Shown here one piece after another: positions 5,816 to 44,001 of a stretch of DNA of 64,000 nucleotides. Position 1 is the first letter of the stretch, and each line of letters opens with the position of its first letter. The notes under the pieces are model-generated. The model had not been told where the DNA came from. It saw nothing but the letters and a program-made list of their open reading frames with translations, and did no database searches. The stretch lies in the NCBI RefSeq assembly GCF_009914755.1, contig NC_060939.1; one strand, 5' to 3'. The translations under genes and the position numbers were made by a program. This DNA is from the human T2T-CHM13v2.0 reference genome, Homo sapiens.

Positions 5816-8452
5816 GGCCCCAAAGGGCTCCAAATATCCACTTGCAGATTGTACAAAAAGAGTGTTTCAAAACTGCTCAATCAAAAGGAAGTTTCACCTT
5901 TGTGAGATGGATGCACACATCACAGTACAGTTTCTCAGAGTGATTCTGTCTAGCTTTTATACGAAGATATTTCCTTTTCCCCCATAGGCTGCAAAGCGCT
6001 CCAAATATCCATTTGCAGATTCCACAAGAAGTGTGCTTCAAAACTGCTCAATCAAAAGAAAGGCTCAACTCTGTGAGATGAACGCACGCATCACAAAGAA
6101 GCTACTCGGAATGCTTCTGTCGAGCTTTTATGTGATGATATTTCCTTTTCCACCATAGGCCCCAAACCACTCCAAATATCTGCTTGCAGATACTAAAAAA
6201 AGAGTGTTTCAAAACTTCTCAAACAAAAGCAAGGTTGAATTCTGTGAGATGAGCGTACACATCACAAAGAAGTTTCTGAGAATGCTTCTGTCTAGTTTTT
6301 ATGTGAAGGTATTTCCTTTTCCACCATTGGCCGCAAAGCACTCCAAATATACACTTGCAGATTCTACAAAAAGAGTGTTTCACAGCTGCTCAATCAAAAG
6401 AAAGGCTGAACTCTGTGAGATGAATGCACTTATCAGAAAGAAGTTTCTTAGAATGCTTCTGTCTCGTTTTTAAGTGAAGACATTTCCTTTTCCATCATAG
6501 GCCTCAAAGCGCTCCAAATATCCACTTCCAGATTCTACAAAAAGAGTGTTTCAAAACTGAACCATCAAAAGAAAGGTTTAACACTATGAGACGAATGCAC
6601 ACATCACAAAGCTGTATCTCAGAATGCTTCTGTCTAGTTTTTATGTGAAGATATTTCCTTTTCCACCATAGGACTCAAAGAACTCTAAATCTCCACTTGC
6701 AGATTCTACAGAGGGTTTCAAAACTGCTCAAGGAAAAGAAAGGTTCAACTCTGCGAGATGAATGGACACCTCACAGAGAAGTCTCTCAGAATTCTTCTGT
6801 GATGTTTTTATGTGAAGATAATGCTTTTCAACCATAGGCCTCAAAGCGCTCCATATATCCAATTGCAGATTCCACAAAAAGACTGTTTCAAAACTGTTCA
6901 ATTGAAAGAAAGGTTCAACTCTGTGAGATGAATGCACAAATCACAAAGAGGTTTCTCAGAATGTTTCTGCCTAGTTTTTGTGCGAAGATAATTCCTTTTC
7001 CCACATAGGCCGCAAAGTGCTCCAAATACACACTTGCAGATTCTACATAAAGAGTTTTTCAAAACTGCTCAATCAAAAGAAACTGCTCATTCAACTCTGT
7101 GAGATGAATGTATACATCACAAAGTAGTTTCTCAGAATGCTTCCGTTTTTGTGTGAAGATATTTCCCTTTTCACCATAGGCCACAAGGCGTCCCAAATAT
7201 CTACTGGCAGTTTCTACAAAGAGACTGTTTCAAAACTGCTCAATCAAAAGAAAGACTCAACTCTGTGAGATGCATGCACACATCACAAAGTAGTTTCTCA
7301 GAGTGCTTCTGTCTAGTTTTTATGTGAAGATATTTCCTTTTCCACCATAGGCCTCAAAGTGCTCCAAATATTCACTTGCAGATTCTACAAAAAGAGTGTT
7401 TCAAAACTGCTCAATAAAAAGACAGGTTCAACTCTGTGAGATGAATGCACACATCAAAAAGAAGTTTCCCAGAATACTTCTGTCTAGTTTTTATATGAAG
7501 GTATTGCCTTTTACACCATAGGCCGCAAATCATGCCAAATATCCACTTGCAGATTCTCCAAAAAGGTGTTTCTTAACTACTCAATTAAAACAAAGGTTCA
7601 ACTTTGTGTGATGGACGCATACATTACAAGGAAGTTTCACAGAATGCTTCTGCCTAGATTTTAGGTGAAGGTATTTCCTTTTCCACCATAGTCCTCAAAA
7701 ACCTTCAAATATCCACTTACACATTCTCCAAAAGAGGGTTTCCAAACTGCTCAGTCAAAAGATAGGTTAAACACTGTGAGATGAATGCACACATCACAAA
7801 GGAGTTTCTCAGAATGCTTCTGTCTACTTTTTATGTGAAGATATTTTCTTTTACACCATAGGCTGCAAATCGCTCCAAATATCCAATAGCAGACTCTAGA
7901 AAAGCAGAGTTGCAAACTGCTCAATCAAAAGAAAGTTTCACCTTTATGTGATGAATGCACACATCACAAAGAAGTTTCTCAGAATGCTTCTGTCTGGTTT
8001 TTATGGGAAGATATTGCCTTTTCCACCATAGACCACAAAGCGCTCCAAATATCCTCTTGCAGGTTCTACAAAGAGAGTGTTTCAAAACTGCTCCATCAAA
8101 AGAAATGTACAACTCTGTGAGATGAACGCACACATCACAAAGAAGCTTCTCAGAATGATCTGTCTAGATTTTATGTGAAGATATTTCCTTTTCCAGCAAG
8201 GGCCTCAAAGCGCTCCAAATATCCACTTGCAGATTATACAAAAAGAGTTTTTCAAAAATGTTCAATCAAAAGAAAGGTTCAACTCTGTGTGATGAATGCA
8301 CCCGTCACAAAGAAGTTTCTCAGAATGCTTCTGATTAGTTTTTATGTGAAGATATTTCCTTCTGCTCTATAGGATTCAAAGCGCTCCTAATATCCATTTT
8401 CAGATACTACCAAAAGACTGTCTCCACACTGCTCAATCAAAAGAATAGTTCA

Positions 8453-8760
8453 GGCCGGGCGCGGTGGTTCACGCCTGTAATCCCAGTGCTTTGGGAGGCC
8501 GAGGCGGGCGGATCACGAGTTCAGGAGATCGAGACCATCCCGGCTAAAACGGTGAAACCCCGTCTCTACTAAAAATACAAAAAATTAGCCGGGCGTAGTG
8601 GCGGGCGCCTGTAGTCCCAGCTAATTGGGAGGCTGAGGCAGGAGAATGACGTGAACCCGGGAGGCGGAGCTTGCAGTGAGCCGAGATCCCGGCCAACTGC
8701 GCTCCAGCCTGGGCGACAGAGCGAGACTCCGTCTCAAAAAAAAAAAAAAAAAAAAAAAAA
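8453..8760 (+). mobile_element. AluYa5, array copy 1 (A25 tail)
   Basis: Full-length dimeric Alu with Ya5 diagnostics CATCCCGGCTAAAACG, GGCGTAGTGGCG, TTGGGAGG, GATCCCG. TSD AAAAGAATAGTTCA (8439-8452) / AAAAGAGTAGTTCA (8762-8775). Confidence 0.95.
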
Positions 8761-43227: not shown

Positions 43228-43531
43228 GGCCGGGCGCGGTGGCTCACGCCTGTAATCCCAGCGCTTTGGGAGGCCGAGGCGGGCGGATCACGAGGTCAGG
43301 AGATCGAGACCATGCCGGCTAAAACGGTGAAAACCCGTCTCTACTAAAAATACAAAAAATTAGCCGGGCGTAGTGGTGGGCGCCTGTAGTCCCAGCTACT
43401 TGGGAGGCTGAGGCAGGAGAATGGCATGAATCCGGGAGGTGGAGCTTGCAGTGAGCCGAGATCCCGGCCAACTGCACTCCAGCCTGGGCGACAGAGCAAG
43501 ACTCCGTCTCAAAAAAAAAAAAAAAAAAAAA
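43228..43531 (+). mobile_element. AluYa5, diverged terminal copy 11 with perfect 14-bp TSD
   Basis: Same insertion site. TSD AAAAGAATAGTTCA at 43214-43227 and 43532-43545. Shares the private CAGCGCTT and CCCGGCCAACTG changes with copies 1-10 but differs at ~10 other positions. Confidence 0.95.
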
Positions 43532-44001
43532 AAAAGAATAGTTCAACTCTGTCAGTTGAATGCACACATCACAAGGAAATTTCTCAGAATGCTTCTGTCT
43601 AGTTTTTATGTGAAGATATTTCCTTTTCCACCGTAGGCCTCAAAGCCCTCCAAGTATCCACTTGTTAATTCTACAAAAAGAGAGTTTCAATACTTCTCAA
43701 TCAAAAGAAAAGTTCAACTCTGTGGGATGAATGCACACATCAAAAAACAGCTTCTCAGAATGCCTCTGTCTAGTTTTTATATGAAGATATTTCCTGTTCC
43801 ACCATAGGTCACAAAGCACTCCAAATATCCATTTTCAGATTCCACAAAAAGAGTGTTTCAAAACTGCTCAATAAAAAAAAAGTTCAACTCTGTGAGATGA
43901 ACGCACACCTCACAAAGAAGATTCTCAGAATGCTTCTGTGTAGTTTTTATGTGAAGATATTTCGTTTTCCACCATGGGCCCCAAAGGGCTCCAAATATCC
44001 A

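What the first reader, a model, noticed from the sequence alone, without database searches (positions are those of the whole stretch)
5816..44001. Nascent higher-order repeat with a young AluYa5 as part of the unit (18-mer alpha + Alu, x11)
Seen: 11 tandem ~3.39-kb units, differing at only a few sites each up to 42119, inside old diverged monomeric alpha. Each carries the same full-length Alu at the same site with the same TSD. Known: alpha HOR arrays are usually nearly free of retroelements, and AluYa5 expanded mainly in the human lineage. Inference: one Alu insertion was amplified by tandem duplication, not 11 retrotranspositions, so the Alu caps the age of the array and this is a HOR caught near birth from the monomeric layer. 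I cannot tell whether it is already catalogued.
Basis: partly seen in the sequence, partly recalled or inferred. Interest (0 to 1): 0.88.

Follow-up and report, generated by a model that had tools for sequence, protein, structure and literature searches.

The report
Alu-carrying 18-monomer alpha-satellite repeat, chr15p
A 38-kb block on the short arm of human chromosome 15 is a recently amplified tandem repeat of 18 alpha-satellite monomers plus one Alu element; it is real and neatly datable, but it has already been described in print.

Summary
Window 5816-44001 holds 11 head-to-tail copies of about 3.39 kb. Each copy has 17 whole alpha monomers, one monomer split by an Alu, and the Alu itself, always at the same site with the same target-site duplication.

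The Alu carries the AluYa5 diagnostic bases. The alpha|Alu junction occurs 11 times in the whole CHM13 genome, all of them here. One insertion was therefore copied by tandem duplication.

- The array has two ages. Units across 5816-42119 differ by about 0.1%. The last 1.9 kb (42120-44001, including Alu 11) is an older relic, about 1.7-1.9% diverged.
- Both kinds of novel junction lie in about 25-27 bp of in-register identity, which points to unequal homologous exchange.
- A roughly 96% paralogue on chr20 confirms that the left flank-to-unit order is ancestral.

The array is not new. PMC11050224 lists an 18mer HOR at chr15:14,699,937-14,737,927. A 2026 preprint describes a CEN15 HOR of "AluYa5 and 18-mer" in 532 of 543 assemblies. 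The kind of array (a "pseudocentromere" amplified from dead monomeric alpha) has been known since at least 2015. Interest is low to moderate.

The parts
1..5815 (+). Left flank: diverged monomeric alpha satellite, A-type, no CENP-B box
   Evidence: The window holds 290 monomer hits, all on the + strand. The 33 whole monomers here have mean pairwise identity 83.8%. Window 1257-8202 is colinear, monomer by monomer at 92-98%, with chr20:30.89 Mb. The window has 0 CENP-B box matches.
5816..42119 (+). Young array: 10 full units of 3390-3397 bp plus a 14-monomer partial unit (39741-42119). Unit = 18 alpha monomers + Alu.
   Evidence: Mean pairwise divergence is 0.108%.
5816..5840 (+). Crossover interval of the founding duplication. 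These 25 bp are identical between the left-boundary monomer and the right-boundary monomer (43977-44001). The unit junctions (first at 9208-9232) are right-end-like to the left of it and left-start-like to the right.
   Evidence: Three-way comparison.
8439..8452 (+). 5' target-site duplication AAAAGAATAGTTCA (first copy; the same in all 11)
8453..8761 (+). Alu 1: 283-bp body plus poly-A. It is followed by the 3' target-site copy at 8762-8775, which has one substitution in the 10 young copies.
   Evidence: Two Rfam Metazoa_SRP matches at 8454-8568 and 8588-8737 show a dimeric 7SL-derived element. Bases C89, A96, A145, T174.
11845..12154 (+). Alu 2
15238..15543 (+). Alu 3
18635..18941 (+). Alu 4
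22025..22331 (+). Alu 5
25415..25724 (+). Alu 6
28808..29118 (+). Alu 7
32202..32509 (+). Alu 8
35593..35902 (+). Alu 9
38986..39293 (+). Alu 10
42095..42121 (+). Junction between the young array and the old relic. About 27 bp fit both alignments. The register is shifted by 5 monomers (851 bp).
42120..44001 (+). Older relic of a unit: 9 monomers plus Alu 11. Segment B (42120-42970) is a 98.1% copy of A (41269-42119). It is followed by 42971-43227, Alu 11 (43228-43531, with a perfect target-site duplication) and 43532-44001.
   Evidence: A versus B: 16 substitutions in 851 bp; with chr20 as outgroup, 9 are A-derived and 7 B-derived. 42971-44001 differs from each young copy at about 20 substitution sites. 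Alu alignment.
44002..48368 (+). Right flank: monomeric alpha. Window 46193-47888 is colinear with the chr20 paralogue.

Best explanation
A single AluYa5-type element retrotransposed into one monomer of old, CENP-B-box-free monomeric alpha satellite on chr15p. It left a 14-bp target-site duplication.

Later, an in-register unequal homologous exchange joined two monomers lying 18 monomers plus the Alu apart. The crossover fell within 25 bp of shared identity. This duplicated a 3.39-kb segment and created an 18-monomer + Alu higher-order unit.

The two copies then diverged by about 1.7-1.9%. Much more recently one unit type was amplified to about 10.7 nearly identical copies (about 0.1% divergence) by further unequal exchange. 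One of those exchanges was shifted by 5 monomers. That shift left the 3' 1.9 kb of the older copy as a relic at the distal end.

The result is a low-copy, homogeneous HOR made from dead monomeric alpha: a 'pseudocentromere', with no evidence of centromere function.

Shown directly: the anatomy, the shared insertion, the two age classes and the junction identities. Inferred: the order of events, the exchange mechanism and the absolute dates.
For: - 11 Alus lie at the same site with the same flank.
- All 11 share three private changes relative to the majority of 20 nearest genomic Alus: position 36, a 2-base insertion at 239, and position 241.
- The 141-bp alpha|Alu junction gives 11 full-length matches in the CHM13 genome, all in this window. 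The other 30 listed matches cover only the Alu part. Only 40 of 2694 candidates were scored.
- Units are 99.8-99.97% identical, while the monomers inside a unit are 76-88% identical.
- The unit junction is a hybrid of the right-end and left-start monomers across a 25-bp identical stretch.
- The chr20 paralogue shows that left flank -> unit start is the ancestral continuous order and that segment A is ancestrally single-copy.
- The relic 42120-44001 is 1.2-1.9% diverged in its alpha parts and 10 of 283 in the Alu. Its changes polarise 9:7 between the lineages against chr20, which fits independent clock-like accumulation since an old duplication.
- PMC11050224 independently counts 10 canonical 18mers plus a 14mer and a 9mer at these coordinates. 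That matches the partial unit and the relic exactly.
Against: - No reads, other human assemblies or ape assemblies could be examined here. Copy number, the empty site and the dates are therefore not tested directly.
- At a genome-average substitution rate (recalled, about 0.5e-9 per site per year) the 1.7-1.9% relic divergence would mean about 17-19 Myr. That is older than the main AluYa5 expansion. The model therefore needs either a several-fold higher local rate or an unusually old Ya5 insertion. PMC11062924 reports 1.1- to 4.1-fold for regions flanking HOR arrays.
- The derived variant at unit column 3329 is shared by the non-adjacent units 1, 4, 8 and 9. A simple stepwise neighbour duplication does not explain this. 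It requires conversion, recurrent mutation or multi-unit exchanges.
- The 2026 preprint's figure legend calls its AluYa5 + 18-mer CEN15 array 'absent in T2T-CHM13'. The array is present in the CHM13 sequence. I read that phrase as 'absent from the CHM13 HOR annotation' but could not check the figure or the tables.
Confidence: 0.85

Rival explanations
1. Eleven independent Alu retrotranspositions occurred into equivalent monomers of a pre-existing 18-mer repeat.
For: None found.
Against: The insertion point, the 14-bp target-site duplication and three private Alu changes are identical in all 11 copies. The flanks are 99.8-99.97% identical among the young units.
Confidence: 0.01
2. The array length is an assembly artefact: CHM13 truly has one or two units and the assembler expanded them.
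For: Near-identical 3.4-kb repeats are a known hazard for assemblers. No reads could be examined here.
Against: The units can be told apart by 14 single-base sites, poly-A lengths from about 21 to 28, an 8-bp insertion in unit 3 and a 1-bp indel. A preprint reports a CEN15 AluYa5 + 18-mer array in 532 of 543 independent assemblies, averaging 48.7 kb. By my arithmetic that is about 14 units, more than the 38 kb seen here.
Confidence: 0.03
3. The young block arose in one replicative burst, such as rolling-circle or break-induced re-replication of one unit, rather than by repeated unequal sister-chromatid or homologue exchange.
For: Divergence is extremely low and even, mean 0.108%. Units 2-6 and units 7-11 each form a block of shared variants at unit columns 1745 and 2653.
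Against: The junctions sit in 25-27 bp of in-register identity, as expected for homologous exchange. Variants shared by non-adjacent units argue for several events. If the preprint's average of 48.7 kb refers to the same array, copy number varies between haplotypes, which implies continuing exchange.
Confidence: 0.2
4. The diverged last 1.9 kb is not older. It is a young copy altered by gene conversion from another paralogue or by local hypermutation.
For: Alpha arrays undergo conversion. Array edges can behave differently from the interior.
Against: The differences are spread evenly: 16 in 851 bp, 3 in 257, 10 in 283 and 6-7 in 460. Polarised against chr20, 9 are derived on the young side and 7 on the relic side, so the relic is not simply a mutated or converted young copy. 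No closer donor was found in the genome. The best non-array matches to the adjacent alpha are <=93%, with 40 of about 10,000 candidates scored per search.
Confidence: 0.07

Closest known systems
[quoted passage not shown]
   Same: It is the same assembly and the same coordinates (window 5937-43927). It has the same 18 distinct monomer types and the same census of 10 canonical copies plus a 14mer and a 9mer variant.
   Different: The main text of that paper never mentions Alu (0 occurrences). It gives no age structure and no junction analysis. Its supplement could not be read as text.
CEN15 HOR array 'composed of AluYa5 and 18-mer' in the preprint 10.64898/2026.07.22.740206 (passages and section 8 read; figure and supplementary tables not seen)
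   Same: Same chromosome, same 18-mer plus AluYa5 unit, and the same order of size (average 48.7 kb against 38.2 kb here). It is reported in 532 of 543 assemblies.
   Different: The preprint calls the array novel and 'absent in T2T-CHM13'. The array is present in the CHM13 sequence. That the two arrays are the same locus is inferred, not shown, because no coordinates or sequence were available.
Pseudocentromeres / SF4+ HORs: recent amplifications of dead monomeric alpha satellite (PMC4496801 and PMC9549924, passages read)
   Same: It is a homogeneous low-copy HOR built from old A-type monomeric alpha, lying among flanks of the same type on chr15p. That arm is where 99%-homogeneous SF4+ HORs absent from chimpanzee and gorilla were reported.
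   Different: It is far smaller than the chr15 'mega-scale' examples. Its unit includes a retroelement. The suprachromosomal family of these monomers was not determined here.
Satellites whose unit contains an Alu or other transposable elements: HSat1B (a 2.47-kb unit with one Alu, as cited in 10.1101/2021.07.12.452052) and the composite repeats of 10.1101/2021.07.12.451456
   Same: A retroelement is carried passively as part of a tandemly amplified unit, with the amplification attributed to unequal crossing over.
   Different: Here the host repeat is alpha satellite, and the unit holds only two repeat kinds (three if the poly-A is counted). In the text I could read it is not among the named composites; their Table S2 was not seen.

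Membership tests
Alpha-satellite higher-order repeat (regular, 'Willard type') | The unit is made of several ~171-bp monomers that are mutually diverged and each of a distinct type. | tested here: met
   There are 17 whole monomers plus 1 split monomer. Pairwise identity is 76.4-87.7% with no internal sub-period.
Alpha-satellite higher-order repeat (regular, 'Willard type') | Units lie head to tail, and divergence between units is far lower than between monomers (<5%). | tested here: met
   Divergence is 0.03-0.21% between young units. The relic is 1.7-1.9% diverged.
Pseudocentromere (amplified piece of dead monomeric alpha; PMC4496801) | It derives from the surrounding old monomeric layer. 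| tested here: met
   The flanks have the same mean monomer identity, about 83%. The chr20 paralogue shows the left flank and the unit start as one continuous single-copy stretch.
Pseudocentromere (amplified piece of dead monomeric alpha; PMC4496801) | It has never been a functional centromere (no CENP-A or kinetochore). | not testable with these tools
   No chromatin data were available. There are 0 CENP-B boxes in the window. It is 38 kb long and lies next to HSat. These are only indirect hints.
Pseudocentromere (amplified piece of dead monomeric alpha; PMC4496801) | The amplification is recent and absent from other apes. | not testable with these tools
   No ape assemblies were available. 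Recency is supported only by the 0.1% divergence and by the AluYa5 content.
AluYa5 | It is a dimeric 7SL-derived SINE of about 280 bp with a poly-A tail and a target-site duplication. | tested here: met
   Two Metazoa_SRP matches, E 1e-10 and 6e-13. 283-bp body, poly-A, 14-bp duplication.
AluYa5 | It carries the five diagnostic substitutions relative to AluY. | tested here: met
   C89, A96, A145 and T174 are present in 11 of 11 copies. Those four positions are as stated in PMC4607524. The fifth, C at about 237, is present, but its position is recalled and comes from no call. The majority of the 20 nearest genomic Alus has the same bases.
AluYa5 | Low divergence, typical of recent insertions (<=2% in polymorphic copies). 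This is typical rather than defining. | tested here: not met
   8-11 differences in 281 positions (2.8-3.9%) from the majority of the 20 nearest relatives. That reference set was chosen by similarity to Alu 11, which biases at least position 150.
Composite repeat / macrosatellite (10.1101/2021.07.12.451456) | [quoted passage not shown] | tested here: inconclusive
   The unit holds alpha satellite plus one Alu, and a third kind only if the poly-A is counted.
Active centromeric HOR array | Megabase scale, new-family (SF1-3) monomers, usually with CENP-B boxes. | tested here: not met
   It is 38 kb long. It has 0 CENP-B boxes. All monomers are of one type, with no A/B alternation. The family was not formally classified.

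The most novel reading that the evidence does not exclude
The shared Alu could turn this array into a calibrated clock for dead alpha satellite.

If the AluYa5 insertion is human-specific (at most about 6 Myr old), the 1.7-1.9% divergence between the relic and the young units implies a substitution rate at least about 3-5 times the genome average. That would hold in a non-centromeric, CENP-B-free alpha array. It would be a direct measurement of the 'hypermutability' proposed for dead alpha layers.

The same calibration would place the founding duplication early in the human lineage and the homogenising burst within the last few hundred thousand years.
Probability: 0.3. Interest if true: 0.45.

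Novelty: already known. Interest (0 to 1): 0.25.

Why it matters
HOR arrays are normally seen only after long homogenisation, so the founding events are erased. Here several traces survive together:
- the founding junction;
- an older relic copy;
- a datable retroelement marker;
- an outgroup paralogue on chr20.

That makes the array a compact worked example of how a higher-order repeat is born from monomeric alpha by in-register unequal exchange. It is also a possible local mutation-rate calibrator.

The structure and its AluYa5 + 18-mer unit are already in print, and the class (pseudocentromere) is established. The value is therefore illustrative rather than a discovery.

Tried and rejected
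- I looked for an empty-site paralogue with the alpha on either side of the Alu. The best non-array hit is chr20:30.89 Mb. Monomer-by-monomer mapping showed that chr20 lacks any counterpart of window 8206-46192, so it offers no empty site.
- The first whole-unit BLAST identity to chr20 (90.35%) was misleading. It mixes true counterparts (about 96%) with background in-register alpha (about 85%). I replaced it with per-monomer mapping.
- T2T-style HOR names for chr15 (S2-S6 C15H) occur in 3 papers of the library (2 listed). From the listing only, neither listed title or abstract concerns this array. The label this array carries in the T2T cenSat/HOR tracks therefore remains unknown.
- The supplement of PMC11050224 yielded only 219 characters of text.
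- PMC12822586 and PMC13684623 hold nothing on this array in the passages shown.
- Independent retrotransposition and an assembly artefact were considered and rejected (see the rival explanations).
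Full report
**What is in the window.** Alpha satellite on the + strand covers 1-48368 and 54401-56830: 290 monomer hits, all on the + strand. It is interrupted by 11 gaps of 301-308 bp and by a 6-kb non-alpha block at 48369-54400. From 56841 to the window end the sequence is a (CCATT)n human-satellite array. There is no CENP-B box in the 64 kb (0 matches).

**The repeat.** Repeated 31-mers recur overwhelmingly at lags of 3390-3397 bases (31,250 k-mers). 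The dense signal runs from about 5800 to about 38720, so the periodic block ends at 42119.

Eleven Alu heads lie at 8453, 11845, 15238, 18635, 22025, 25415, 28808, 32202, 35593, 38986 and 43228, each behind the same 25 bases of alpha. Head-to-head spacing is 3390-3397 bp for nine intervals and 4242 bp for the tenth.

Each unit is 17 whole monomers plus one monomer split by the insert. Monomers within a unit are 76.4-87.7% identical (mean 83.4%) with no sub-period. The flanking monomers are the same kind, with mean pairwise identity 83.8%, 83.1% and 81.9% in the three flanking blocks.

Units 1-9 differ by 0.03-0.21%, mean 0.108%. Over the 10.7 young units I found 14 single-base variable sites, poly-A length differences, one 8-bp insertion (unit 3) and one 1-bp indel.

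**The insert.** It gives two matches to the metazoan SRP RNA model, one for the left arm and one for the right arm. It has a 283-bp body, a poly-A tail and a 14-bp target-site duplication, AAAAGAATAGTTCA.

PMC4607524 (passages) gives four of the five AluYa5 diagnostic changes: T>C at 89, C>A at 96, G>A at 145 and C>T at 174. All 11 copies carry C89, A96, A145 and T174. The fifth change, C near 237, is present, but its position is recalled and comes from no call.

The 20 nearest Alus elsewhere in CHM13 differ from their own majority by 0-4 bases, and that majority has the same diagnostic bases. The 11 copies here differ from that majority at 8-11 of 281 positions. That reference set was selected by similarity to Alu 11, which biases at least position 150. 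This divergence exceeds the <=2% reported for polymorphic Ya5 insertions, so 'young' holds only in the subfamily sense.

Three changes are shared by all 11 copies: position 36, a 2-base insertion at 239, and position 241.

**One insertion, copied.** All 11 copies share the same site, the same duplication and the same private changes. In addition, a 141-bp probe across the alpha|Alu junction gives 11 full-length matches in the whole CHM13 genome, all in this window. The other 30 listed matches cover only the Alu part, and 40 of 2694 candidates were scored. Eleven independent insertions are excluded.

**Two ages.**
- The 851 bases at 42120-42970 (B) are a copy of the preceding 851 bases (A, 41269-42119) with 16 substitutions, 1.88%.
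- The next stretch, 42971-44001, carries Alu 11. It differs from each of the ten other copies at about 20 substitution sites: 3 in 257 bp of alpha, 10 in the Alu, 1 at the end of the poly-A tail, and 6-7 in 460 bp of alpha.
- Alu 11 has a perfect 3' target-site copy. The ten young copies share one substitution in it.
- With the chr20 paralogue as outgroup, the 16 A/B differences split into 9 derived in A and 7 derived in B. That is what independent accumulation since an old duplication predicts. It is not what conversion or damage of a young copy predicts.

So 42120-44001 is the 3' 1.9 kb of an older unit copy, and 5816-42119 is a much younger homogeneous block. [quoted passage not shown] These are exactly the partial unit 39741-42119 (14 monomers) and the relic without its Alu (9 monomers).

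**Junctions and mechanism.** Identity with the next unit starts at 5816. Identity of the last copy with the others ends at 44001.

The internal unit junction (first at 9208-9232) matches the right-end monomer to its left and the left-start monomer to its right. The switch falls within 25 bases that are identical in both monomers.

The young|relic junction at 42095-42121 likewise lies in about 27 bases that fit both alignments. It shifts the register by five monomers.

These are the marks of in-register unequal homologous exchange, which I infer as the mechanism. A single replicative burst for the young block is not excluded (20%). Variants shared by non-adjacent units (units 1, 4, 8 and 9 at unit column 3329) show that the history was not a simple chain of neighbour duplications.

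**Outgroup.** chr20:30,884,000-30,903,999 (minus strand) is colinear, monomer by monomer at 92-98%, with window 1257-8202 and with 46193-47888. Over the unit start plus segment A it shows 3.94% substitutions across 2208 aligned bases.

It carries the left flank and the unit start as one continuous stretch, and it carries segment A once. The unit|unit and A|B junctions are therefore chr15 novelties. It has no counterpart of window 8206-46192, so it gives no empty site.

**Dates (inference).** The relative order is chr15/chr20 split (about 4%), then the founding duplication (1.7-1.9%), then the young burst (0.1%).

At a recalled genome-average rate of about 0.5e-9 per site per year, these values would mean about 17-19 Myr for the founding duplication and about 1 Myr for the burst. 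The first figure conflicts with a human-lineage Ya5 insertion. Two ways out remain: the local rate is several-fold higher (PMC11062924 reports 1.1- to 4.1-fold for regions flanking HOR arrays), or the Alu is an unusually old Ya5. Ape assemblies would decide between them.

**What is known.**
[quoted passage not shown] Alu is never mentioned in its main text (0 occurrences). Its supplement was unreadable.
[quoted passage not shown] I take this to be the same array, on the basis of chromosome, unit and size. I could not see the figure or the tables.
- That preprint's wording 'absent in T2T-CHM13' cannot refer to the sequence, because the array is in this CHM13 window. Its Fig. 3c legend says 'unreported in T2T-CHM13'.
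- PMC4496801 and PMC9549924 (passages) define the class: pseudocentromeres, homogeneous HORs made by recent amplification of dead SF4+/SF5 alpha. They report 99%-homogeneous SF4+ HORs on chr15p that are absent from chimpanzee and gorilla.
[quoted passage not shown] Satellites that carry an Alu per unit (HSat1B) and composite repeats are precedents.

**Verdict.** The array is already catalogued and, according to the preprint, nearly fixed in humans.
- the two-age anatomy;
- the junction identities;
- the chr20 outgroup;
- the observation that the array is present in CHM13 although it was called unreported there.

Not tested here: reads, other human and ape assemblies, suprachromosomal family, and chromatin state.

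Noticed in passing
window 48369-54400 (minus strand): A 6-kb non-alpha block interrupts the monomeric alpha. Its minus-strand reading frames match L1 ORF1 domains (Transposase_22, Tnp_22_dsRBD) and L1 ORF2 endonuclease and reverse-transcriptase domains, broken into several pieces. It is therefore an old, roughly full-length L1.
   Followed up: partly
window 56841-64000: A (CCATT)n human-satellite array begins directly after the last alpha block. It includes a 137-bp sub-repeat at 57555-57886 that contains Alu-like sequence.
   Followed up: no
L009+L010 = chr20:30,884,000-30,903,999 (minus strand) versus window 1257-8202 and 46193-47888: This is an inter-chromosomal paralogue of the chr15p monomeric alpha, colinear monomer by monomer at 92-98%. 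chr20 lacks any counterpart of window 8206-46192. Instead it has about 3.4 kb of other alpha between the two matching blocks (locus positions about 4671-8092).
   Followed up: partly
window 8586-8637 and the equivalent place in each Alu: The right arm of the Alu also scores as the Rfam mir-1268 precursor family: 65.4 bits, below the gathering score of 83. This is an Alu-derived model, so the match is not evidence of a miRNA gene.
   Followed up: no
window 15238-15997 (unit 3): Unit 3 alone carries an 8-bp insertion just after its Alu and three private substitutions, which makes it the most distinctive young unit.
   Followed up: no
preprint 10.64898/2026.07.22.740206, Fig. 3e legend: The legend says the AluYa5 + 18-mer CEN15 array is 'absent in T2T-CHM13', yet such an array is in the CHM13 sequence of this window. 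This is probably a statement about the annotation, not the sequence.
   Followed up: partly
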